DNA of 58,677 nt, filler included, from Sphacelaria rigidula (lineage: Eukaryota): assembly GCA_964200075.2 (NCBI GenBank). It is 7 parts of 7 records of this genome, joined end to end, with 100 filler letters (N's around TTAATTAATTAA, not from the genome) between each part and the next. Parts side by side here need not be neighbours in the genome. Positions count along the whole stretch, not along the records: positions 50,383 to 58,677 come from CAXNAA020011616.1; 6 more parts are not named here. The stretch is one strand, 5' to 3'. Each line of letters starts with the position of its first letter. The stretch's first letter is position 1. Position numbers and translations under genes: made by a program. Positions 8,299 through 58,677 of the stretch are shown here, piece after piece. The notes under the pieces were generated by a model. That model ran no database searches, was not told the origin of the DNA, and saw only the letters and a list, made by a program, of their open reading frames with translations.

Positions 8299-8398
8299 NN
8301 NNNNNNNNNNNNNNNNNNNNNNNNNNNNNNNNNNNNNNNNNNTTAATTAATTAANNNNNNNNNNNNNNNNNNNNNNNNNNNNNNNNNNNNNNNNNNNN
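8299..8398. other. Artificial contig linker (N44-TTAATTAATTAA-N44)
   Basis: 100-bp spacer with a six-frame stop core. Confidence 0.97.
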
Positions 8399-15604: not shown

Positions 15605-15751
15605 GTGAAGCGATCTTTGGGTGGAAAAGCAAAGTCAATATTTTTTCATCGTCGAGGGAAGGACGGCCATTTGATGGGGCATGTATTTCTTTCTTGTCCG
15701 CCAGAGGAGCAAAGCCATTGTCTTTATGTGCAAATATCCCCCCCCCCCCCC

Positions 15752-15817
15752 TGCTCCGTCTCGAAAGGGATGCGTGGTCAATGGTCAAACGACTAAGGCA
15801 AGCAACAAATGAGTACG
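15752..15817 (+). mobile_element. Ultra-short LINE 3'-end fragment in a poly(C) tract
   Basis: C14-TGCTCCGTCTCGAAAGGGATGCGTGGTCAATGGTCAAACGACTAAGGCAAGCAACAAATGAGTACG-C11. Confidence 0.8.
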
Positions 15818-15832
15818 CCCCCCCCCCCACTA

Positions 15833-16240
15833 AGGGGAAGAGATATATCAGTAGTCGAGTGGAGGAGGAAGTAGATGTACAGAATTGCCCCTGTGGCGAA
15901 GCAATAGAGAGTAAAATTCACATAGTGGCATGATGCGAACTATGCCAGGAGGAACGGGACGTGCTAGAGGGGGAAATGCGGGATGTGAACGAATAAGGTG
16001 GCATGAAATCGTTTGATGCATTAGACAGTAGGGAGAAAACGATGGCTATACTAGGAGGTAGATGGTGGCCGGAGACGATGAAGCAGGACGGGGACAAGAT
16101 ATGTAGAACTTTTGTATGTAACGCATGGGAGAAACGTAATGAGCGCCGAAACGTTGGAGGTGTCTCTATTAGTAGGCGCTCCGTCTGGAAAGGGATGCGT
16201 GGTCGATGTTAAGACGACTACGACGAGCAACCAATGAGTA
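15833..16240 (+). mobile_element. 5'-truncated LINE copy (C-terminal Zn-knuckle region plus 3' end)
   Basis: Matches 46285-46510; encodes CPCGEAIESKIHIVA*C; flanked by the direct repeat CCCCCCCCACTA. Confidence 0.85.
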
Positions 16241-16263
16241 CCCCCCCCACTATAGCCCCCCAT

Positions 16264-16696: not shown

Positions 16697-16796
16697 NNNN
16701 NNNNNNNNNNNNNNNNNNNNNNNNNNNNNNNNNNNNNNNNTTAATTAATTAANNNNNNNNNNNNNNNNNNNNNNNNNNNNNNNNNNNNNNNNNNNN
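16697..16796. other. Artificial contig linker
   Basis: N-TTAATTAATTAA-N, 100 bp. Confidence 0.97.
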
Positions 16797-25094: not shown

Positions 25095-25194
25095 NNNNNN
25101 NNNNNNNNNNNNNNNNNNNNNNNNNNNNNNNNNNNNNNTTAATTAATTAANNNNNNNNNNNNNNNNNNNNNNNNNNNNNNNNNNNNNNNNNNNN
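25095..25194. other. Artificial contig linker
   Basis: N-TTAATTAATTAA-N, 100 bp. Confidence 0.97.
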
Positions 25195-37269: not shown

Positions 37270-39653
37270 GTGAGGGGTGCTCTTCAGGCTTGTGTGTCGT
37301 GGGTGTATCTGTTTTCAACATCGCTTGGAATTCGTTTCTAGCAGTTCGATGCCTGGAGGTTTTCCGGTTGGGAGGGGCGCATTCCTGTTCGGCTTTTCCG
37401 CAGAATTCGTCCAATTGAAGGTTCTCGTTACTGTTGGACTTCACTCGCCCGGCAACGGACCACCTTCGGGTGCTACTTCAACCGCGCGTGCTCGTCCCCC
37501 ACCAGGCGGACAGACAACAACTGACGATGGAAGTGGCAGAACTGCAAACGACTTCTTCCATATCCATAAAATGTCGGCCAGAGCCGGAAGCGTCAGGTAA
37601 GGAGGAGGAAAAAGAGGAGGGAGGCAACGAGGGGGCACACACTGGTGATGTTGATGTCAAAGCTGCGGACGAAGTACCTGGTGGGGCCCACGTTGAAGTT
37701 GGAGTCCCTGGTCATGTCGGTGATAACCAACATGTGAGCGGGGCGCCGATCGTCTACCCCAGCGAACCTTGAAGATCCCCTCTGCGGAAAACGCGGCATT
37801 GTACCTTGGACGGGTAGCGCTGTTCTGTCGCGGAGCCAACAACGGAACGCTTCGTGTACAGCACACATTCTTCGAGACTATCTTCGAGTTGGTTACATGT
37901 TGTTTTGTTTTTCGGGTGGGGTCGTTGGTGAATGATCTGGGACGCGTTTTCACTGTTCGAGCAGTTTTGCCCGCGCGGGCGTATGTATATCTGTGGTTGT
38001 GTGTGTCCGCTGAGATTTGATTCCATGACAAAATGCGTCTCAAGCTATCAAAATGAGCGATTAGGCCAAAACGATGTGTTTCGTCTATCGGTAACATTTC
38101 GTGGTTCCTCACGTGCCGTCGTCTAGTCGCTCGCGCTAGAGGACGCGGTGTGGAGGGGTGCTAATTAGGGGGTGCCCCCGCATTCACCTTGAGTTTGCCC
38201 CGGCTTGGTGCAAATTTTCACTCCTTCGAAAAGACTTGATGCTTCTCTCGGGATGGATTTGACTGATCACGTGCTGAAAATGTACGTGAATTGCAGGTGT
38301 GTGGCATGCGGTGTTGATATTCTTGCCATACACTTAAACCGTGCATTATGATGGTGGACTAGAATGCGATGTGACACACACTTTGCTGTTGCGCCCCGAT
38401 GGCATTTGGATTTTCTTATGAGAAAAGGATCTGATAGCCCTCCTGAAAAACGTGAGGGTCGTCAGTGGCTGAAATGATATTTCTGGCGCGTGTCGACGCG
38501 GTCCGGCAGTTGTTGCGTGCGCACGTCTACAAGAGAAGAAAGGTAGACTCTGAGTGTGCGTGCGAGAGGGGGAGAGGAAGTGAGGGGAGGGCGGGTTGAC
38601 CGACTTCTTGCACGGAATATTCACTCCAAAGGACCGTCGCGAGCAATGAATGATTCGTAGTGATGGTGTTGGCGTCCACTCAGCATGTCCACGCCCCGGC
38701 AAGGTTTCAGCCAAGAACAGAAACAGACGCACAAGGACCCTGTGAGGTTGTGTGTGTGCCACACGTATGAACCCCCTGTATCGCACACTGAAACACTCTC
38801 CCCTTCATTATAGGATTGTTCCTCTTCCAGCCAACTTTATGGCGTTTCCCCGATTAGGTGCCAGGCGCTGGGCACTGGAGAAGCACAAAAATTATCCTGG
38901 TCCAGATGCGTCCAGTCGACTGTTAGCACACGCGTCACCTCTCGAGACCTCGGCCGCAATATGTACCTACTCGATTGTTGTTCGCGAAAACTCGTCTCCC
39001 CATCGCAACTTTTGTGCCACGAAGGGTGTCAACGGTGTAGGGCACAAGTCCTGGAGTCCTCTCGAAATGAAGAACATGTACAGCAGCACCAGTATTCGAG
39101 GCACCACTCACTTCGAATGGCCAACCGAACCTTACACCCGCGTTTCGAGGTTGACGATAGCCGGGCGAGCGACTATCCAAACAAACACTGGGCCACTTCC
39201 CGCGCTTTGGAAAGCGGCGTCAGCTTTATTTACTCAAATCAAACCGGTACAACTTGCCATCCCTCCCTATATTTCATGTGACACCGGCTTCGCTTCACCA
39301 ACCCGAGCTTGGTGTCAATCGAGATAGATCGGACAAATCATGGTAAAACCCAGCATTCGCACACCTTTACTCGAACCATCACGTGTATAGCATCTGATTT
39401 GACTTACCTTGTTACTATACCTCAAGTCTATTTATTCTTGGGTGATATAAATGTTGTCGTAAAATTACTGTTTCTCTTCGAATCCAGCAGCCCCATGGCA
39501 TATGGTCATGGGTTATACATGATATCCGAGGTTGAAAAAAGAAGAAGGAAAAACCGTTGCTGATGAAGGGAACTTGAGAACGGGGGAAATAAAGAACAGA
39601 GGAGGAAACAAATATAGCGTCGTGGGAAAGAGAAAGAACGGGGGGCGGGGGGG

Positions 39654-39731
39654 CGTACTCATTGTTGCTTGCCTTAGGGGTTTGACCATTGACCACGCAT
39701 CCCTTTCGAGACGGAGCACGTAGTCATATGT
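39654..39731 (-). mobile_element. Ultra-short LINE 3'-end fragment with a C-rich TSD
   Basis: Reverse complement of the 15752 fragment; flanked on both sides by GGGGGGCGGGG. Confidence 0.8.
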
Positions 39732-41886: not shown

Positions 41887-41986
41887 NNNNNNNNNNNNNN
41901 NNNNNNNNNNNNNNNNNNNNNNNNNNNNNNTTAATTAATTAANNNNNNNNNNNNNNNNNNNNNNNNNNNNNNNNNNNNNNNNNNNN
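41887..41986. other. Artificial contig linker
   Basis: N-TTAATTAATTAA-N, 100 bp. Confidence 0.97.
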
Positions 41987-50282: not shown

Positions 50283-50382
50283 NNNNNNNNNNNNNNNNNN
50301 NNNNNNNNNNNNNNNNNNNNNNNNNNTTAATTAATTAANNNNNNNNNNNNNNNNNNNNNNNNNNNNNNNNNNNNNNNNNNNN
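50283..50382. other. Artificial contig linker
   Basis: N-TTAATTAATTAA-N, 100 bp. Confidence 0.97.
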
Positions 50383-50390
50383 GGGGGGGG

Positions 50391-50461
50391 CGTACTCATT
50401 TGTTGCTTGCCTTAGTCGTTTGACCATTGACGACGCATCCCTTTCGAGACGGAGCAGGTTC
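50391..50461 (-). mobile_element. Ultra-short LINE 3'-end fragment between G runs
   Basis: G8-CGTACTCATTTGTTGCTTGCC...CGAGACGGAGCAGGTTC-G9. Confidence 0.8.
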
Positions 50462-50592
50462 GGGGGGGGGCTATCTCGGCAGCAGTCGAAAAGAAAGCTC
50501 ATTAAAACGACAGTGGAAAGGATCCAAATACACAGAAGAAAAGGGGAAGCAATCACAATCAATCGAAGAATAATACAGGAATGCAGAGGCAG

Positions 50593-52648
50593 CTACGTAC
50601 GGCTACGGCGCTTGCCAAAAGTGACACCGGCACACAAAGAACACGTCCGCCGGAAGTCGTCGGTAGAAGCGGACGGGCCGCAAGTTGGGTGGAGTAAGCC
50701 GTCGCAGGAGCCGGCACACGGTATCATGCCCATACAGCCACCTGTAACACAGCCAGGTTCGGAGCAAGAAGAATGAACCCAAATCGGGAGGTCTTCGGTG
50801 CCGTCGCCCGGTGCTCCAGGACCGTTGCGGAAAGTAGGATATAGAGCGGAAGGGCGACAGGCCGGCTGAACACCGTCGTCCGAAAATCTGTCCGGGCCAA
50901 CGGAGAAGTTAGGCACGCCTGGCATCGGCGACCTCCGTGCGGCGTCCAGCGTGGACCTTAGCCTGGTCGCACGTGAGCTCGATCCATTCCGCGTCTTTAT
51001 GGTCCCAAAGAGCGAAACTCTCGCTGACGCGTCCACCGGAACCACCGGAGAAAAAGAGGGTGTACGCATGTCCTCGTCGGAAAAGGGAGGGGTACACGAG
51101 AGCGACGAAGTAAGCTTCGGCCCTCAACGCTTCCACAGGATGGACGCTCGTGGGACAAATCCAGGAGGAGCTGGGGAGATACTCCCCATCTTGGATCATC
51201 CACGTGAGGATGGCCACAGCGGAAGGCGTGAGTGGACGCAGGAATTCCTCCCGAAAGCATCGGACGCAAGACCAGAAACTCTTCTTGCCGAGTTCGAGGC
51301 GCACCTCCTTCACTACCTGACGCTGCAGCTTCCGGTATTCGGCGAGAGCGACGTTAAACTCCGGGCGTGACACGTTCTTACTCGCGGTCCGGAAGTGGCC
51401 TCTCCCGACATCCTTGGAGCAGTAGCCGACCATAGCTGGAGGGATATATAAGGCGCACAAGGAGAAAGGAGCGACGGAAAGGAAAGAGCGATGTGAGGTA
51501 ATGGACGGGAAAGAAGATAGGAGAAAGGAAAGGGTCGGCAGTGAAGGCGTACGGTAAGATGGGGAATGCAGGAGGGAGAGGTGAGGGTCGGAAGAAAGGG
51601 AGGAAGAATTCCAAGAAATATTTGCAAGTAAGAAACGAGAGTAGGAAATAATGCGTGAGCGATATTCAAAGAAGGAAATCGAATTGGGAGGGTACGAAGA
51701 GAAAAAAAACTTGCCTTCAAACGACTGCTTAGCACCGAGAGGCTTGACGTCAATCTTAAGTCGTAGATCAGGTCCCCAACTCTCGAACGTCTTCAAGTTG
51801 TTACGTCCGTCCGTGTTCATCTTCTTGTCATCGTCGTAGGCCTTCACGATTCCCAACGTAAGAACCCCCTGGACGTGTAGGTTCCCCTTTTGCCCCCCCC
51901 GCTCGAGGCTAACTAACCCGCGCGTCGCCTTCTTCTCCAAGAAGTGCGCCGCGTCATCGAAAACGTTGGCGGGTATGTTCCCCGCGTCGCGGGATGCTAT
52001 CGTCAGAGAGAAGTCCACAGGATTCCCTGTTCCGGAATTGATGATGTTGTCGATGACGTCACCGGTGCGGGGGCAGAGGCGGACCAGAGATGGCTGACGC
52101 CGCGGACGACCGCGAGGCCGCGGCCAGGGGATAGTAGGGTCGGCGGCGGAGCGAGGGCAGGTACCGCTGACGTCGCCGGCGGCGCGGGGTTCGGCCGTGG
52201 AAGCATCGGAAGCCCCGGCGTCGGAGGCGGCGGGGCGATGGGAGGCGCCGGCAGGGCGGCCGGAACTGGCGGCGCTGGCAGCGGTGGATGAAACGGACAT
52301 GGCGCCGTCAGAACCGGACGGGATAGCTGAGTTGGTACGACTGGAGAGGGCGGTGCGACTGGAGGTGACGCCGTCGGAGCCGGAGGGGATAGCTGAGTTG
52401 GTACGAATGGAGGGGGCGGAGCGACTGGAGGCGACGCCGTCGGAATCGGCGGCGATGCGGGGGCGTCCGCGGCGTCACGGTTGACTGGCGAGTGGAGAGG
52501 ATGGTGCGGTGGCGCCAGATGTCCGGATGGGATCCTCTGCAGTAGGGACGCGGGGACAACGACCACGCGACCGCCTCGTGCGCGTAGGCCCATCGGGCGC
52601 AAGTGAAGGCGCAGGCCGGTCGTCAGTCGTACCTGTAGAACCCACCAT
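50593..52648 (-). mobile_element. Replitron-like rolling-circle transposon gene: Rep-type HUH endonuclease with AT-hooks and C-terminal PHD-like finger (probably disrupted)
   Basis: RCR motifs DFSLTI, ERGG.KGNLHVQG and, after removing intron 51436-51714, SFEAMVGYCSKD; no helicase. In-frame TGA at 52475-52477 and an apparent frameshift near 50958. Confidence 0.82.
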
Positions 52649-52893
52649 GGCCGCAGGGTGCGGCGACGGGGTAACACTGCCGGCATGTGAGGGGTTACGA
52701 GGTGGAGACGCCGTCGTGAGTATCGTGGGCGACGCCCGACGCGCTGGAGAGGAAGCAGAGAGTGGCGTTGACGGGGGAGAAAGGAACAAGTATTAGAGAA
52801 GAATAAGAATAAACGATGAGAAGATGAGAGAATATCTGTGGTTATGTTGGAGGAATGAGTACGAAATAATAAATCAAAGTCGCGAAAAGATAG

Positions 52894-53478
52894 TCTTCCT
52901 CTTGTCCAAAAAATAAATCTTCCCCTTGTCCAAAAAATAAATCTTCCCCTTGTCCAAAAAATAAAACCCAACCATCCATCTTAAAATATATCATCATTTA
53001 TTCATTTTATTTTATATTGTACTGATACCTGGAAACTGGTTATTGCCCTTAACTCATGACAAAAAAAATGGTCTTCCCCTTGTCCAAAAAATAAAATCCA
53101 ACCATGCATGAAAAATATATATCATAATTTATTCATTTTATTTACCTATAATTTATTTGTATCTATTGTCTTTCCCTTGACCGAAAAATAAAAAATTCAA
53201 CCATCCATCGCCGAATAACTTTTCATCAATTAGTTAATTAAATAAATAAATAAATACTTAATATTTATTGATCATTATGGTTAAATTTCTTCACCTACTA
53301 GTAGTTTTTCGTCTAGATTCCCCCTACTTGTTCTTCACTTAGGACCTAACAATTTCGGTCATGGGAATCCACGTTTGTATGGCATGTAGTGATTATCAAC
53401 ATAAGTCCAAAAAATAGAATCCAACCATCCATCCTATTGTATTTCCCTTGTCCAAAAAATAGAATCCAACGATCCATC
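52894..53478. repeat. Iteron-like direct repeats (3 tandem 24-mers plus 4 dispersed copies)
   Basis: TCTTCC(C/T)CTTGTCCAAAAAATAAA x3 at 52894-52965; related copies, mostly followed by CCAACCATCCATC-like sequence, at ~53072, 53171, 53405 and 53442. Confidence 0.9.
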
Positions 53479-55099
53479 CTCAATCCCAGCTGAAGCCCCA
53501 ACTGCGACGTAAACGCTAGCAAAGCAAGGCCACGACCCAAGATGGGAGAGTATGTAGCTTGCTGATCCTGTGTTCGGCTCGTGACTCAAACCGTATGTTC
53601 TTCTCTCCCAATACAATACAATAGCCAGCTGTCTAAGTTGGAACAGCCCCACAGCCAGGACACAACTACAATGGTAATGGAGGGTGATAGTACAGCACAG
53701 CTAAGACTCAAGTCGATAAGGCTGTGGACTCGCGACACTGAAGACAGGAGATCGGTGGGTAGCTGATGAGCAAAGCTCTTCCTTATATCCAATTAGGCCT
53801 GAAGACTGTTGTCGGGGTTTCCGAGTGAGACAGTGGGGTAGGGCAGCTGCCCATACATCCGTCTGCCCTGCTTACAATCTTGTCATAATACAAAATCACC
53901 GTGACGCGCCGTACCTTTTGGGAATCAAGGCTGTAATAGCGACAGGTACACGACCAATAGGGTACAATCCTTTTGCCTTCAACCCGAAACAAATATACAG
54001 GGAATCGAATCCTGCCTTACAAACACACATTCGACTAGATTCCTACCATACCCGCTGGTCGTTTCTGGGGACCATCTGCATATCCACAAGGAAACTAGTT
54101 TTAATTCAATGCCTCAGTCATTTACCATCACAATCCATCAATCCACCCATCCTCAAACAATCTTTAATGAATTAATTATTTTTTTTTATTAACGATTTGA
54201 TTACAAGCTCAACACCCACAAATTAAGCTAAAGATAGGCGTCATAAAAGCTATGTGCTCGTTGTTCTTTCTTGTAGTAATTGGTGTTGTCCCTAGTGGTA
54301 TAACGTGTTCGAGCGCAAATAAATACAGAGTTATGATGAGAGTTGCAAAAGATCACAGAAGTTTTTAGTCGATGCACCAGAGAGGGGAAGATGGGGAAAA
54401 GGTAAACAGGAAGAAGAAAATGAACGTATCGTACAAAGTGAGAACTGTATTATACAGGGTGATGATGGAGTGGGAAAACATGGAGAAACATATTCGCTGA
54501 TGGAGACGTGGTGCAGACGCGATATTTCGAATTACTACAAATAAGGAAATTGGATGTGGAATAGGAAATACGGTTAGGTATCATGAAAATAAAAATGACG
54601 AAATGAAGAGAATGTGAAGTGGGAGAGAAAAGCGCCATAGAGATCCGAACAAAATCGTACAAAACAGGAAGAAAACTACAGACCGAAAAGAAATGAGAAT
54701 ATTAGTATTAAAAGAAAAGTAAAACGGAACGAACGGTCCCCCATAATTTGTGGGCTATATCAGAGATGATTGGAATTTCACTTATATATGAAAGGAGACG
54801 AAAAAAATCCATGTTGTTAGTAACATGCGGTAGGCTGCGGTTTCATCGTGGGCCACTCACACTTGATCAGAGTTGAGAAACATAGCAAAATATTGGGTGA
54901 ATGGAGATGCGGTGCAAACGCGAAATTTCGATTTAGAACATACATCAATATTTCATGTGGGAAAGGATGTACTACTAGGGAGTATAAAACATGCAAGAAT
55001 AAAATGAAGGAAACATTAACTGGAAGAGACAAAGAAGAAGATATCAGAACGAATGACAAACGGAGAAAAAAAAAAAGAGAAGAATATCAGTGATGGAAA

Positions 55100-55420
55100 C
55101 AAAGGAGGGAGGGGGATAAAAGGGGGGGGTTGAAGTAGGGGGTCAGGCGAGAGCGTTGCACTGTCGGAGACAGAGTCGACGGGGGCAGTCGGCGTTCTGG
55201 TCTTCCAAGCGGAGGCTGTAGTGTTGTTTTGTACACGCTGCTTCTTGGGCGGAGATTTGTAGTCGTTGGCGTGGTGGTCGTCGTCGGACTCGTTGCTGTG
55301 ATCGTCTGATTCGTCGTCGGACGTTAGACACTCGAGGACGTCGTCTCGTTTCTTCCCCGAGAAGACGTCGCACTCCTCGAGAGCTCGGCGCTGCTGCTTC
55401 GTACACTTGGTGACGAACGC
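55100..55420 (-). CDS. Putative exon of an unknown acidic protein with an NLS-like motif
   Basis: CTCAG|AFVTKCTKQQRRALEECDVFSGKKRDDVLECLTSDDESDD...SPPKKQRV; GC-rich coding-like island among CT-rich intron-like DNA. Confidence 0.4.
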
Positions 55421-56212
55421 CTGAGAGGAACAGGGAAGTTCGAGAGAACGGTGTAGCGGGTGAGAAATCAGGAATAGCATTGGCTTGTGTGCAGTGGACA
55501 GCGGGTCGGAAAAGGACATGCGAAGTAGGAAATCGTGTGGGCGAAACTGAGCAGGAGGTGAGTACAGCACAGAACGGTCGTGATACGATGGCGACGACAC
55601 AAAAGAGTCACGTGTAGCCATTGAGTCCATCTGCGGCCGCAGAAGAAGTAGAATTCAGGATTTTTGTGCAGAAATGTGGGCGCGAAAAAAACGGGAGTGA
55701 AACCGAAATATGTTACAGAGATTCCCGAGATACAGCAGATTTTGAAGAGGACAACGCAGAGTTGCCATTTGCCCGGGCGAAAAACCTGCAGACAGACAGA
55801 CAGACGTCCTCCTTCAAGGGCCGCACACGTCACACGTTCATGTTGCACATATGAGGTCAAAAGTGAAGCCAGGCTACAACTACGGTGGGGGACGGGGACA
55901 ACGTGGGGAGCTCTGTTGAAAAGTAGAGTCAGATCAGGGGTCCCCCCGCGGTCGCCGTCGGTATTACTACCCTCGCTTAACATTCGAGGTACCAAAAAAA
56001 ATGGCAGAGAACAAACAAAGGCGCAGGAAAGGCGCAGAAAAGCGAAAAAAGCAGGAAAAATACATGAAATGCGCAATAAACAAGCGAAATAATAGGGAGA
56101 TGGACTCAATGGGTAGTGGCGTGGCGGTTGTGCGGTCGAGAATCACGAAATACACAGTGCAGTACAGTGAGAGAAAAAAACAGTGGGAACGGAATCGAAA
56201 AATAAAAATACG

Positions 56213-56406
56213 CACGGGTGGCCACTGGGGTCTGTAACCTGGCCATTTTGGGACCTTACCACCCGCCTTTAGACTGGGACATGTTCTGTTTCGATCCTGT
56301 CCATGCTGTGCGAATACTCTTCACTTGTCTACCCAACCCGTGGACCTTACCAAAGGTGGATAAGGTCCCAAAATGGCCAGGTTACAGACCCCAGTGGCCA
56401 CCCGTG
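56213..56406. mobile_element. 194-bp MITE with 46-bp perfect TIR (CACGG ends, CMC/CACTA-like)
   Basis: CG|CACGGGTGGCCACTGGGGTCTGTAACCTGGCCATTTTGGGACCTTA ... TAAGGTCCCAAAATGGCCAGGTTACAGACCCCAGTGGCCACCCGTG|CG. Confidence 0.88.
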
Positions 56407-56621
56407 CGGTGGCGAAGGCAACAAAGGAGGGAGATGGCGCATGCAACACAGATAGTGCAGGAAACTTCGCAAGTACGAATGAGAGTTGTGAATTGTACCG
56501 GCGTTTAAGGAATTGATGGTGTGGTGTAAAGTCGTGACGAGGAGAGTTCAGAAGAGGAGGACATTACCTCTTCAGTACGATACAGTACGACGTCGCGTGT
56601 ACGCACAAAACGGGTGGAATA

Positions 56622-56885
56622 CTATAACATGGTAACAGGGCCCACCTTGGCCTTGACCTTCAATCGCCGTCGAAGGTATAGCTTCAAGTCGTCGGCGACC
56701 TCTTTCGCGTCGTCAGGATCGGACGCGGCGAAGGCCCACGTAGACGGCGGCACCATGCCTGGTACCCCGTCGGGCAGGTACCGATACCTCTGCTGTTTGA
56801 GGGCCTCCCGAACAGCGTACCCGTTCTCGACCAGAACACAACTTGTTTTGTTGGGCACCGTGATGTGAAGTGCCTGGCCCGACAC
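56622..56885 (-). CDS. Small ORF or exon, 87 aa, unknown function
   Basis: ATG-started and globular-looking: MSGQALHITVPNKTSCVLVENGYAVREALKQQRYRYLPDG...STWAF...AKEVADDLKLYL. Confidence 0.5.
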   Translation of the reverse strand: MSGQALHITVPNKTSCVLVENGYAVREALKQQRYRYLPDGVPGMVPPSTWAFAASDPDDAKEVADDLKLYLRRRLKVKAKVGPVTML

Positions 56886-57011
56886 ATACTACAGTTCAGC
56901 TTGCGGTAGTAATATGATTTTCTAAGCCGCGGATGAAGCGAGAAGGGAGGGAGGGGAGGGGGACCCTTGGTCGCAGAGACGCGATGAAATGGGAGATCAG
57001 TGGCTGTAGGG

Positions 57012-57240
57012 CCATTCGTTCGTCGGAGGAACGAAAGGGCATGCGGGCAGCATACGACAGTTTGTTTTGCGGGCAAATGTTGTTGACGTTTCCGCGGTGA
57101 AATACCGGGATTTAGAGTCCGTTCGTTCGTCGGCGGAACGAAAGGGCATGCGGGCACGGCATGCGGGCAGCATACGACTGTTTATTTAGCGGGTAAATTT
57201 TCTTGACGTTTCCGCGGTGAAATACCGTGATATAGAGTTT
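57012..57240. repeat. Tandem duplication of a ~107-bp unit
   Basis: TTCGTTCGTCGG.GGAACGAAAGGGCATGCGGGCA...TTGACGTTTCCGCGGTGAAATACCG occurs twice. Confidence 0.85.
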
Positions 57241-57979
57241 TCCGGAAAAATCCGTTGCGTTATTCGCAGCGGATGAAAGGCACATAGAAGAGGATTTGTG
57301 GAGAGGTACGGTGCGGTAATACGGCGAAATCGCGGGATTTATATTTTTCCCGGAAATTCCGATGGGATATAGCCTGCGGATGAAACGCACATACAACACC
57401 GTTTGTGGAGATATCTTGGTGGTCATCGAAGCGTTTGATGTGTGATTGCCGTGGGTTTATGGGATGTACAGCGTCGATTCTGTTGTGGTGTAAGTGTATT
57501 TATACAGCGCCTGTAACATGCACGAGTTATTCGAAGTGGGCTTGGAAAGGACGACGTACCAGCGCAGGCATGAGGCGTGGATGAATTGGCGTTGGCAAGG
57601 AGTGATTACGGTAGGGAAGAGCGGGCGAGAACCTGGGCAGGCGATACGGTATGTGCTTAAAGTGTGTACTTTACTGCCATTGGTCCCCACCATCGAGAGA
57701 TTGGTGCATATTCGCCGTGACCTCCAAACGTGCATGGTGTACGATTGCGTGAGAGTGAGCGACGTTTTGACGTACGTTTCAGAAACGCTGTCAGGAATGT
57801 TTTGAACACCAATTAAAGTGAAACACAGATTTTTTAGGACGAGGGGATGACAATATTGATGCGATGCGAGTATCACTGCAAAACACGTCATGCACGCGAA
57901 TTTTCCTTTTCCCCCCGCTCCCTGAAAGTAGTATACTTCAAGATACTCTCCCCCACCATAGTACACCACAGGTAAATAT

Positions 57980-58445
57980 CAGGGATGTGTACGGAGGACA
58001 ATCCGCTCCGCGGTGCGGATTTTTTTTCGAAACCTCACGAAGCGGAGCGGAGCGGATATTCGTATGTGTGGAAAATCACGGATTATGACGGTGCGGATAT
58101 CCGCCACTGAAAATGTCACGGATTATTGCGGAGCGGGTATCCGCCACTGAAAATGTCACGGTGCGGTGCGGATTTTTTTTATATGGTACGGAGCGGAGCG
58201 GAGCGGAGCGGATATCCGTCAGTGGGAAAACTCACGGATTTTCAGGGGGCGGGATATCCGCCAATGAAAATGTCACGGGTTATTGCGGAGCGGATATCCG
58301 TGTCATGGATTTTTTCACGGAGCGGATTGCCCCCCTCCGTGGAACAATCCGCACAAACCGCGGCGATTCCCCGCGGTGCACCGTCGCAGTAATCCGTGAA
58401 ACCGATACGGTTATCCGCGAAAAATGTATGGATATCCGCGGATTA
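57980..58445. repeat. Short-motif array (GCGGA, GCGGATATCCG, GAAAATGTCACGG), probably MITE subterminal repeats
   Basis: Multiple direct and palindromic copies; begins CAGGGATG. Confidence 0.6.
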
Positions 58446-58616
58446 ATACCAAAAAGTACGAAAGTAGTTGTTTTGCATTGACTTCCAGCTGCTGGACAGG
58501 GGGGGCGGCGGATTAAATAGCGCACATGTAAGGTCGAATCCCTCGAAGAAAAAAAATCAATCGAGAAAAATGAACAGTACATATTTGAATTTTGAATGTC
58601 ACCCCACCCTACCCTA

Positions 58617-58677
58617 GGTACTCGTCTGTAACGAAGATAAGAAAAACCCGGTAGAGTTCAAATGGAAGTGGGGAGAA
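58617..58677 (+). mobile_element. Start of a 5'-truncated copy of the LINE
   Basis: GGTACTCGTCTGTAACGAAGATAAG matches 45587-45611; preceded by C-rich ACCCCACCCTACCCT. Confidence 0.75.

What the first reader, a model, noticed from the sequence alone, without database searches (positions are those of the whole stretch)
50593..52648. Spliced Replitron-like HUH (Rep) endonuclease with AT-hooks and a PHD-like finger, in a probable brown alga
Seen: the minus-strand frame carries rolling-circle Rep motifs I (DFSLTI, ~52000-52015), II (ERGGQKGNLHVQG, ~51866-51905) and III (MVGYCSKD, ~51409-51433), with no Walker A/B helicase. Established: an HxQ-type motif II plus YCxK motif III is the signature of CRESS-virus-like Reps and of Replitrons, helicase-less HUH transposons best known from green algae and non-seed plants. 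Helitrons differ in having a RepHel fusion. Inference: from an ATG in good context (GCCATGG, 52648), the ancestral protein was a disordered N-terminus with two AT-hook motifs (P*RRGRPR and PRPRGRPRR), then HUH, then a Cys/His finger. I do not know this architecture from described Replitrons; it could be a chromatin-guided rolling-circle transposon lineage in stramenopiles.
Basis: partly seen in the sequence, partly recalled or inferred. Interest (0 to 1): 0.9.

Follow-up and report, generated by a model that had tools for sequence, protein, structure and literature searches.

The report
Broken Replitron transposon gene, brown alga
This is a decayed copy of a Replitron, a recently described kind of jumping gene already reported from brown seaweeds, whose enzyme here carries extra DNA- or chromatin-binding pieces that the describing paper's text does not mention.

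Summary
The minus strand of 50593-52648 encodes a two-exon Rep HUH protein. It matches Pfam Replitron_HUH at 76.4 bits against a cut-off of 28.5. Named hits place it in the brown alga Sphacelaria rigidula. This copy is dead. It has an in-frame TGA at 52475-52477, and a 68-nt deletion at 50921-50925 shifts the frame.

Contigs of three probable RNA runs join 51435 to 51715, the predicted intron. They come from a copy about 6% different that keeps the deleted segment. The fold matches circovirus Rep nuclease domains, Z 9.4. No helicase or capsid was found.

Replitrons in brown algae were published in 2023 (PMC10288648), so the lineage is not new. The modestly new points are:
- An AT-hook core lies upstream of motif II in 16 of 43 relatives, against 0.3 expected, 22-38 residues before motif I where that motif was found.
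- A PHD-type finger occurs in 6 of 155 relatives.

Termini could not be mapped.

The parts
51715..52648 (-). Exon 1 of the Replitron transposase pseudogene: disordered N-terminus, both AT-hooks, HUH motifs I and II.
   Evidence: Translation. tblastn to the intact paralog P0001 gives 83% identity over residues 1-312. RNA-type contigs end this exon at 51715.
52475..52477 (-). In-frame TGA nonsense codon, where the paralog P0001 has Arg (QPRRRGRPR).
   Evidence: X1 record 4 (52368-52606) matches the window with 0 differences. X1 may be the source sample, so this is not independent support.
52454..52474 (-). AT-hook 1 (RRGRPRI).
   Evidence: Conserved in P0001.
52303..52449 (-). 66-bp tandem repeat, 2.2 copies, encoding a repeated 22-aa Ser-rich unit of the N-terminal region.
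   Evidence: Tandem Repeats Finder. The same duplication is visible in P0001.
52097..52123 (-). AT-hook 2 (PRPRGRPRR), followed by the conserved VRLCPRTGD (52058-52084), about 34 residues before motif I.
   Evidence: Positionally conserved in the Ectocarpus proteins P0005-P0007 and in distant relatives.
51998..52018 (-). HUH motif I (VDFSLTI; the S-U-T-U signature).
   Evidence: The signature is described in PMC10288648, section 5.
51866..51904 (-). Conserved Glu plus motif II (ERGGQKGNLHVQG; HUQ type).
   Evidence: H259 and Q261 are nearly invariant in the 84-sequence alignment.
51436..51714 (-). Intron, 279 nt, GC-AG, phase 1, splitting the HUH domain between motifs II and III.
   Evidence: X6 record 9, X7 record 16 and X8 record 22 join 51435 directly to 51715. 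Intron ends are GCAAGT...CCAG. P0001's model has the same junction, SFEA|KVGY.
51410..51433 (-). HUH motif III (MVGYCSKD; GYxxK with a single catalytic Tyr, Y1).
   Evidence: Y317, K320 and D321 are nearly invariant.
51050..51271 (-). Second, helical domain (Replitron_C), proposed to be the oligomerisation domain.
   Evidence: Pfam PF21860 scores 24.6 bits against a cut-off of 27, on ORF residues 402-475. In the P0001 model, helices 366-459 lie in 10-residue blocks of pLDDT 91-96, except block 441-450 at 72.
50921..50925 (-). Junction of a 68-nt deletion that removes P0001 residues 485-505 and shifts the frame. A premature TAA follows at 50909-50911.
   Evidence: tblastn. The RNA-type contig X6 record 9 carries 63 extra letters here.
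50596..50925 (-). Out-of-frame C-terminal region. It holds a C4HC3 PHD-type finger (ligands between 50626 and 50766) and a basic tail, GKRRSRT. The stop is at 50593-50595.
   Evidence: All 8 ligands are invariant in 7 sequences.
50526..50592 (-). 3' untranslated stretch. Likeness to the transcribed paralogs stops at 50526, which may mark the right end of the element.
   Evidence: X7 record 15 and X8 record 21 align only down to 50526, although both records run on further. This is an inference.
52649..52941 (-). 5' untranslated region and promoter side. The RNA-type contig reaches 52941.
   Evidence: X6 record 9 spans 50597-52941.
52894..52965 (.). 24-bp tandem repeat, 3 copies, belonging to a very high-copy motif that recurs up to 53480. 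It is a likely left flank and not part of the Replitron.
   Evidence: Summed depth in X1 is 27,264 against about 100 over the gene.
50383..50474 (.). Dispersed and tandem repeat of about 75-90 bp, bounded by G-runs, at the contig end. This is right-flank DNA.
   Evidence: Copies occur in four other pieces of the window. 'Goes back 74' joints appear in 52 X1 contigs.

Best explanation
The locus is a decayed, non-autonomous copy of a multi-copy Replitron, a helicase-less Y1 HUH rolling-circle-type DNA transposon, in the brown alga Sphacelaria rigidula.

The family's transposase is made from a two-exon gene. A GC-AG intron lies between HUH motifs II and III. In order, the protein has:
- a disordered N-terminus with two AT-hooks;
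- a circovirus-like Rep nuclease domain (S-U-T-U, Glu, H-U-Q, GYxxK);
- a helical second domain followed by a long helix;
- a C-terminal C4HC3 PHD-type zinc finger and a basic tail.

Mechanism, inferred from the family as described by Craig 2023: the single catalytic Tyr nicks and rejoins single-stranded DNA at the element ends. Two Tyr are needed, so the enzyme probably acts as a multimer. Host replication or a host helicase supplies the single strand, and the element copies itself without excision.

The roles of the accessory parts are my inference. The AT-hook next to the nuclease domain probably anchors it in the minor groove of AT-rich DNA. The finger probably binds chromatin or transposon-end DNA. 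The basic tail may serve nuclear import.

This particular copy cannot make the full protein. It has a nonsense codon at codon 58, and a 68-nt deletion cuts off the end of the long helix and the finger. Less diverged paralogs are intact and appear to be transcribed and spliced.
For: **Family match.**
- Pfam Replitron_HUH scores 76.4 bits in the window ORF and 83.4 bits in P0001, against a cut-off of 28.5.
- All three motifs and the conserved Glu are present, with one Tyr.
- H259, Q261, Y317, K320 and D321 are nearly invariant in 84 relatives.

**Fold.**
- In the AlphaFold2 model of P0001, the 10-residue blocks covering 201-500 have pLDDT 85-98, except blocks 351-360 (71), 441-450 (72) and 451-460 (83).
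- Residues 1-170 have pLDDT under 50.
- The best six of 48,161 PDB representatives are all CRESS-virus Rep nuclease domains: 7kii Z 9.4, rmsd 2.5, 94 residues aligned; 8h56 Z 8.7; 2hw0 Z 8.2; 6h8o Z 8.0; 9pqf Z 7.7; 9pqq Z 7.5.
- pMV158 RepB follows at Z 6.9.

**No helicase.**
- Pfam finds only the Replitron domains in P0001.
- P0001 has no Walker A motif.
- No longer, fused relatives were found, which is weak evidence.
- None of the 17 other ORFs of the contig matched any Pfam family above its cut-off.

**Multi-copy and decaying.**
- S. rigidula has at least two annotated loci (P0001, P0002).
- In run X1, single contigs identical to the window have depth 23-28, while summed depth over the gene is 86-125. 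Up to 4 variant contigs appear at one site.
- The window copy has the TGA and the 68-nt deletion.

**Expression and splicing.**
- Contigs from 3 of the 3 probable RNA runs laid (one study) join 51435 to 51715.
- X6 record 9 (2142 nt) spans 50597-52941 with 131 differing letters, and carries the 63 letters that the window lacks.

**Published setting.** Replitrons are reported in Phaeophyceae (PMC10288648).
Against: - No termini, target sites or empty sites could be defined. No whole genome is held, and only about 210 bp lie downstream of the stop before the contig ends.
- Transposition is therefore inferred from family membership and copy number. It is not shown.
- Replitron_C is below Pfam's cut-off (24.6 against 27 bits).
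- The 'RNA' label of runs X6-X8 is the tool's guess, and they come from one study. Only 15 of 96 joints were displayed, so I cannot exclude that the intron-less form also exists as DNA.
- Summed contig depth is not a copy number.
- The flanks 54261-57030 are also multi-copy at similar depth. The repeated unit may therefore be larger than the roughly 2.4 kb suggested, or the region may be a duplicated block and not a discrete element.
Confidence: 0.88

Rival explanations
1. It is an endogenised CRESS-DNA virus (or pCRESS plasmid) Rep fragment, not a transposon.
For: The best structural matches are circovirus, nanovirus and vientovirus Rep nuclease domains, Z 7.5-9.4. The HUQ and GYCSK motifs are CRESS-like. 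Downstream context is cut about 210 bp after the stop.
Against: - The sequence-level match is to Replitron_HUH and Replitron_C, with no viral Rep family reported even at E <= 10.
- The intact paralog ends with a zinc finger and a stop, with no SF3 helicase or Walker A motif.
- None of the 17 other ORFs of the contig matched a capsid or helicase family.
- The gene has a spliceosomal intron, and 9 of 156 fetched relatives begin at M[VLIM]GY, right at that intron's position.
Confidence: 0.04
2. It is a pseudogene of a domesticated, host-serving Rep-derived gene family that is no longer mobile. The AT-hooks and PHD finger would reflect a chromatin role.
For: AT-hook plus PHD is a typical chromatin-protein combination. 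Paralogs appear to be transcribed and spliced. An Ectocarpus relative is annotated 'expressed unknown protein'. No termini were demonstrated here.
Against: - Several diverged copies exist in one genome, at least one of them decayed.
- The catalytic residues are conserved across 84 relatives, including those of this clade.
- Copies differ by about 6-17%, as in a transposon family. The flanks are repeat-rich.
- Craig 2023 curated multi-copy Replitron consensus families in stramenopiles.
Confidence: 0.06
3. It is a Helitron-type (RepHel) element fragment.
For: It is a eukaryotic HUH element in a repeat-rich region.
Against: Motif III has a single Tyr (GYCSKD), not the two of a Y2 Rep. No helicase domain or Walker A motif is present. 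Pfam reports no Helitron family at E <= 10.
Confidence: 0.01

Closest known systems
Replitrons (Craig 2023, PNAS; PMC10288648), including the brown-algal (Phaeophyceae) members reported there. Pfam PF21859 and PF21860.
   Same: - Y1 Rep with S-U-T-U, a conserved Glu, HUQ and GYxxK.
- An adjacent helical second domain of about 90 aa.
- No helicase.
- Disordered, variable N- and C-terminal regions.
- An intron-containing gene, present in several copies.
- Stramenopile host.
- A possible length of about 2.4 kb, within the published 2-4 kb range.
   Different: - The paper's main text calls Rep the 'only recognized domain' and the termini 'unalignable'. It has 0 occurrences of 'AT-hook' or 'PHD'.
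- Here an AT-hook core lies upstream of motif II in 16 of 43 relatives, 22-38 residues before motif I where that motif was found.
- A C4HC3 finger ends the protein in this clade.
- The paper's supplementary datasets, which hold the protein sequences, could not be read. The architecture may therefore be implicit there.
- The terminal direct repeats that define the DNA element were not verified here.
CRESS-DNA virus Rep nuclease domains (for example circovirus Rep: PDB 7kii, 8h56, 2hw0).
   Same: The fold and the arrangement of the catalytic motifs: Z 8.2-9.4, with 94-107 residues aligned. Motif II is HUQ-type.
   Different: - No SF3 helicase and no capsid partner.
- Only 12-17% sequence identity.
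- A spliceosomal intron.
- AT-hooks and a zinc finger in place of the helicase.
piggyBac transposase C-terminal cysteine-rich domain, a cross-brace zinc finger (PMC5861402; title and start of abstract seen in the listing).
   Same: A transposase that ends in a cross-brace Cys-rich zinc finger. In piggyBac that finger binds DNA sequence-specifically and is essential for transposition.
   Different: The catalytic domains are unrelated (DDD RNase H-like against HUH). No sequence or fold match to piggyBac was obtained here, so this is an analogy only.
PHD fingers of KDM5A and KDM5B (third PHD; PDB 2kgg, 2ma5).
   Same: - The same ligand order and spacing, including the unusual C-x4-C first pair in KDM5A.
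- They are the best two of the four hits of the finger profile against all PDB sequences.
- KDM5B is the top Foldseek row.
   Different: - The matches are not significant (E 0.086 and 0.27; Foldseek E 0.95).
- In the printed alignment, the two Trp of the KDM5 fingers face Met and Leu. From recall, those Trp form the methyl-lysine cage, so canonical H3K4me3 reading is doubtful.

Membership tests
Replitron transposase | Rep HUH domain of the Replitron type (Pfam PF21859 above its gathering score). | tested here: met
   76.4 bits for the window ORF and 83.4 bits for P0001, against a cut-off of 28.5.
Replitron transposase | Motif I S-U-T-U, a conserved Glu, motif II HUQ, and motif III GYxxK with one Tyr (Y1). 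| tested here: met
   FSLTI, ERG, HVQ and GYCSK at the stated coordinates. Near-invariant H, Q, Y, K and D in 84 relatives.
Replitron transposase | Adjacent conserved second domain of about 90 aa with four helices (Pfam PF21860). | tested here: inconclusive
   24.6 bits (window) and 22.1 bits (P0001), against a cut-off of 27. The AlphaFold2 model shows confident helices at 366-459.
Replitron transposase | No fused helicase. | tested here: met
   P0001 has only the Replitron domains and no Walker A motif. The search for longer forms found none, which is weak evidence.
Replitron element | Multi-copy in the genome. | tested here: met
   Two annotated loci in S. rigidula. Up to 4 variant contigs per site in run X1, with summed depth 86-125 against 23-28 for single exact contigs. 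Depth is not a strict copy number.
Replitron element | Short direct repeats at or near both termini, and discrete shared ends. | tested here: inconclusive
   The only candidate is CGAAAAGA[A/T]AG at 50487-50497 and 52883-52893. It is one of 19 short repeat families in 2.6 kb, so it is at chance level. No other genomic copies could be fetched.
Replitron element | Copy-and-paste transposition. | not testable with these tools
   This needs insertion polymorphisms or de novo insertions.
CRESS-DNA virus Rep (endogenous viral element) | HUH nuclease fused to an SF3 helicase, with a capsid gene nearby. | tested here: not met
   No helicase in P0001. No capsid or helicase family in 17 other ORFs of the contig. 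The downstream flank is only about 210 bp.
Helitron | Y2 Rep fused to an SF1B helicase. | tested here: not met
   Single Tyr in GYCSKD, and no helicase.
PHD finger | C4HC3 ligand order with PHD spacing. | tested here: met
   C-x4-C-x10-C-x2/3-C-x4-H-x2-C-x12+-C-x2-C, with all 8 ligands invariant in 7 sequences down to 34% identity.
PHD finger | Significant profile or fold match to PHD. | tested here: inconclusive
   - Pfam PHD scores E 0.13 and 0.3 in P0012 and P0087. Znf_SCAND3 scores E 0.0008-0.2. All are below their cut-offs.
- The finger profile against PDB gives 4 hits, all PHD fingers, at E 0.086-2.
- The best Foldseek E-value is 0.95.
- VIA gives Z <= 3.1. Its 39 rows are mostly PHD, FYVE or RING fingers.
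- The finger model has mean pLDDT 62.9.
AT-hook | R-G-R-P core flanked by basic residues. | tested here: met
   RRGRPR and PRGRPRR. 16 of 43 relatives with at least 100 residues upstream of motif II carry the core, against 0.3 expected from shuffles. Pfam AT_hook is sub-threshold in relatives, at 10-11 bits against 17.4. DNA binding itself was not tested.

The most novel reading that the evidence does not exclude
Replitron transposases are not 'Rep-only'. An AT-hook core lies upstream of motif II in about a third of family members with enough N-terminal sequence, 22-38 residues before motif I where that motif could be located, including relatives only 26-33% identical. That would make it an unremarked functional part of the DNA-engaging apparatus. 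The Sphacelaria-type clade has in addition gained a C-terminal PHD-type finger, which is duplicated in one relative. Together these modules would steer this helicase-less rolling-circle transposon to AT-rich DNA or to particular chromatin, or would hold its own ends as the piggyBac finger does. That would give the first handle on Replitron target choice.
Probability: 0.35. Interest if true: 0.6.

Novelty: new member of a known kind. Interest (0 to 1): 0.35.

Why it matters
Replitrons were described only in 2023, and their mechanism, end recognition and target choice are unknown.

This locus, together with its intact paralog, gives a well-supported brown-algal gene model: an RNA-type spliced junction, the catalytic motifs and a confident fold. 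It also corrects the deposited model of this locus. That model uses a donor 21 nt upstream and drops seven residues, GAKQSFE (GAKQSFE in P0001, RQQTFS in Ectocarpus).

The recurrent AT-hook next to the nuclease domain and the clade-specific PHD-type finger are testable candidates for how a Y1 Rep without a helicase finds DNA or chromatin.

For genome annotation, the locus shows that 'unnamed protein product' models in brown-algal assemblies include decayed Replitron copies. These should be masked as transposons.

Tried and rejected
- **Whole-genome search:** no genome is held for this window. Copy counts, termini and empty sites could not be obtained.
- **Related loci in JGI metagenome contigs, queried with P0001:** 160 pattern matches, none confirmed.
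- **Sequencing runs:** no listed holder is on record as RNA. X6-X9 are only guessed to be RNA.
- **Homodimer of P0001 residues 336-510** (second domain plus long helix): the tool's verdict was 'no answer', score 0.00. This is no evidence either way.
- **Single-sequence search of the finger against PDB sequences:** only chance-level, non-finger hits, E 1.2-7.5.
- **Foldseek of the whole P0001 model:** no hit at E <= 0.001. The best was the papillomavirus E1 DNA-binding domain at 2.4e-3, with pMV158 RepB at 0.014. The VIA wide search was needed to see the CRESS Rep match.
- **Finger region against the 5.8-billion-protein set:** only P0001 itself and P0004.
- **Hairpins at the putative ends:** DNA folds of 50471-50600 and 52760-52900, both strands, are no better than shuffles, z -0.40 to +1.72.
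- **Rfam and tRNA scans of the contig:** nothing.
- **Source names for 10 relatives:** none carried an organism name. The taxa of the distant AT-hook-bearing relatives are therefore unknown.
- **Earlier findings of this scan:** none.
- **X1 joints 53097->54143 and 53104->54147:** first considered as a nested insertion. They more likely reflect recombination or mis-joining between copies of the high-copy 'CCAAAAAATAxAATCCAACCATCC' motif that recurs there.
- **X1 joint 50431->58491** (one contig, 28-nt side): considered as an 'empty site' for an 8-kb insertion. Rejected as too weak, because both sides are very high-copy repeats.
Full report
**What the window is.** The 58,677-base window is seven pieces of about 8.3 kb joined by N44-TTAATTAATTAA-N44 linkers. 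The finding lies in the last piece, 50383-58677 (8295 bp). No whole genome is held. The gene is on the minus strand, so only about 210 bp downstream of its stop are available.

**Observation.** Reading the minus strand confirms every feature.
- The ATG at 52646-52648 sits in GCCATGG.
- An in-frame TGA lies at 52475-52477, directly before RRGRPRI (52454-52474).
- A second AT-hook, PRPRGRPRR, lies at 52097-52123.
- Motif I is VDFSLTI (51998-52018), motif II is ERGGQKGNLHVQG (51866-51904), and motif III is MVGYCSKD (51410-51433).
- A 279-nt stop-free insert at 51436-51714 has GCAAGT...CCAG ends.
- After ...EVADARRA* (TAA at 50909-50911), the reading continues in another frame from MPGVPNF (50905-50925). 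It runs through a Cys/His cluster to GKRRSRT, with the stop at 50593-50595.

**Identity.**
- Pfam gives Replitron_HUH at E 3.2e-21, 76.4 bits, against a cut-off of 28.5. Replitron_C scores 24.6 bits, just under its cut-off of 27.
- The word-indexed search found two proteins named Sphacelaria rigidula. This species belongs to Phaeophyceae, Sphacelariales.
- P0002 (335 aa, partial) lies on a contig of 8295 bp. It matches the window's exon 2 at 176 of 177 residues, and is identical over exon 1 up to its own donor. It is the deposited model of this very locus.
- P0001 (615 aa, on a 14,461-bp contig) is an intact paralog.

**Lesions in this copy.**
- tblastn of P0001 on the window gives 83% identity over residues 1-336, 89% over 313-484 and 86% over 506-615.
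- P0001 has Arg where the window has TGA.
- The window lacks P0001 residues 485-505, and the flanking codons overlap by 5 nt. That amounts to a 68-nt deletion with a frameshift.
- P0003 and P0004 also keep this segment, so it is ancestral.
- No other piece of the window holds a copy.

**Architecture of the intact protein.**
- P0001 carries Replitron_HUH (residues 212-347, 83.4 bits), Replitron_C (372-441, 22.1 bits) and a weak Znf_SCAND3 match (E 0.021) at 577-607.
- With an alignment of 84 relatives (A1), AlphaFold2 gives pLDDT under 50 for residues 1-170. The 10-residue blocks covering 201-500 score 85-98, apart from three blocks at 71, 72 and 83.
[quoted passage not shown] The finger region scores about 50.
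- The exhaustive structural comparison puts six CRESS-virus Rep nuclease domains on top: 7kii Z 9.4, rmsd 2.5 A, 94 of 103 residues aligned; 8h56 Z 8.7; 2hw0 Z 8.2; 6h8o Z 8.0; 9pqf Z 7.7; 9pqq Z 7.5. pMV158 RepB follows at Z 6.9.
- Foldseek alone found nothing at E <= 0.001.
- This reproduces for a brown-algal member what Craig reported for Replitron-1 (PMC10288648, section 5).

**No helicase, no capsid.**
- P0001 has no Walker A motif.
- A search for relatives of 1078-3075 aa found none, which the tool itself calls weak evidence.
- Seventeen other ORFs of the contig gave no Pfam family above its cut-off.

**Splicing and expression.**
- Eleven runs were listed, and none is on record as RNA.
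- I laid X1 (best holder, kind unknown) and X6, X7 and X8 (guessed RNA, one study).
- Each of the three guessed-RNA runs has a contig in which 51435 is followed directly by 51715: X6 record 9, X7 record 16 and X8 record 22.
- X6 record 9 is 2142 nt long and spans 50597-52941.
- These contigs differ from the window by about 6% (131 letters in record 9). They carry 63 extra letters between 50925 and 50921.
- They therefore come from a paralog that is intact at the deletion site, not from this copy.
- X1 covers the intron (record 2, 51382-51610).
- The deposited model P0002 uses a GT donor 21 nt upstream, which drops GAKQSFE. The RNA-type junction, P0001's model (SFEA|KVGY) and the Ectocarpus proteins (QQTFSG|MLGY) agree on the GC-AG junction.
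- Nine of the 156 fetched proteins start with M[VLIM]GY, just before motif III. This suggests that the intron position is shared widely.

**Copy number and flanks.**
- In X1, contigs identical to the window have depth 23-28. Summed depth over the gene is 86-125, and up to 4 variant contigs differ at one site. Several copies at 90% identity or more therefore exist, although depth is not a strict copy number.
- The contig's low end (50383-50474) is a G-run-bounded repeat of about 75-90 bp. It also occurs in four other pieces of the window.
- The stretch 52876-53480 holds a very high-copy 24-bp-type motif.
- Likeness of the RNA-type contigs to the window stops at 50526, although the contigs continue.
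- These limits suggest an element of about 2.4 kb. An 11-nt near-repeat lies at 50487-50497 and 52883-52893, but that is one of 19 short repeat families and no better than chance.
- The flanks 54261-57030 are also multi-copy, and another joined transcript (55419->56645) lies there. A larger repeated unit therefore cannot be excluded.

**AT-hooks.**
- Of the 155 fetched proteins, 20 carry [RKP]GRP[RKP].
- Among the 43 with at least 100 residues upstream of motif II, 16 carry it there. Residue shuffles predict 0.3.
- The last hook lies 22-38 residues before motif I in 10 of the 11 proteins where a motif I-like pattern was found downstream (93 residues in P0022). Five more had no motif I-like pattern downstream of the hook. 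The 10 include relatives only 26-33% identical.
- Ectocarpus proteins have three hooks, the last in the same place before the conserved VR[IL]CPxTGD.
- Pfam AT_hook is sub-threshold where it is reported.

**Finger.**
- Eight ligands in the order C4HC3 are invariant in 7 sequences down to 34% identity. Also invariant are an LP motif upstream, a DD pair and a GK tail. P0004 has two fingers.
- Folded alone, the finger reaches mean pLDDT 62.9.
- No match is significant, but the matches are one-sided. The best Foldseek E-value is 0.95, and most listed rows are PHD fingers.
- VIA finds 39 of 48,161 chains at Z >= 2, with a maximum of 3.1. Most are PHD, FYVE or RING-type fingers.
- The finger profile against all PDB sequences returns four hits, all PHD fingers: KDM5B E 0.086, KDM5A E 0.27, and KMT2D twice.
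- Pfam PHD, PHD_2, zf_VAL1_N and Znf_SCAND3 all appear below threshold.
- I read it as a PHD-type cross-brace finger, with a probability of about 0.75.
- In the alignment, the two Trp of the KDM5 fingers face Met and Leu. From recall, those Trp form the H3K4me3 cage, so I would not assume methyl-lysine reading.
- A DNA-binding role like that of the piggyBac C-terminal cross-brace finger is an equally good guess (PMC5861402; title and start of abstract seen).

**Literature.**
- 'Replitron' occurs in 11 papers of the library.
- Craig 2023 reports Replitrons in brown algae, chrysophytes, dictyochophytes, pelagophytes and labyrinthulids. It describes N- and C-terminal regions as unalignable and Rep as the only recognised domain (I read passages and sections 5, 6 and 9).
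- 'AT-hook', 'AT hook' and 'PHD' occur 0 times in its main text.
- No paper in the library holds both 'AT-hook' and 'HUH endonuclease'.
- The paper's supplementary datasets were closed. They may contain these very proteins.

**Verdict.** The observation and the core interpretation are right. The locus is a dead copy of a brown-algal Replitron. The family is known, and the proteins are already deposited, though unnamed. The accessory AT-hook and PHD-type finger are a modest addition that, as far as I can tell, has not been described.

Noticed in passing
window 1-58677: The window is not one locus. It is seven pieces of about 8.3 kb joined by N44-TTAATTAATTAA-N44 linkers (8299-8398, 16697-16796, 25095-25194, 33491-33590, 41887-41986, 50283-50382). 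Context must not be read across these joins.
   Followed up: yes
window 50383-50474, with copies at 15734-15825, 33407-33478, 39647-39721, 16178-16248 and 30116-30176: A short repeat of about 75-90 bp bounded by G-runs, both dispersed and tandem. It has extreme summed depth in all four runs laid, and 'goes back 74' joints in 52 X1 contigs. The contig ends inside it.
   Followed up: partly
window 52885-53480 and 54130-54150: A recurring motif of the form CTTCCCCTTGTCCAAAAAATA(A/G)AATCCAACCATCCATC, partly as a 24-bp tandem array. It is very high-copy in DNA. The neighbouring stretch 53430-54260 also has high depth in the guessed-RNA runs (about 900-2900). No Rfam family or tRNA matched.
   Followed up: partly
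window 55068-55419 and 56645-56936, minus strand: A contig of run X7 (record 18) joins these two stretches and skips about 1225 nt. Across the joint the minus strand reads one open frame with an acidic Ser/Asp-rich stretch. It has no Pfam match. Like the Replitron gene, it is about 8% different from the window and multi-copy. It could be part of a larger repeat unit or an unrelated neighbouring element.
   Followed up: partly
window 51715-51736: The deposited protein model of this locus (P0002) uses a GT donor 21 nt upstream of the junction seen in the RNA-type contigs. It therefore lacks seven residues, GAKQSFE.
   Followed up: yes
window 58010-58300 and 57012-57238: Local tandem duplications, in units of about 40 bp and about 110-150 bp, in the high-depth far end of the contig.
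   Followed up: no
P0004 (unnamed ENA source): This relative carries two consecutive copies of the C4HC3 finger, separated by an acidic linker.
   Followed up: partly
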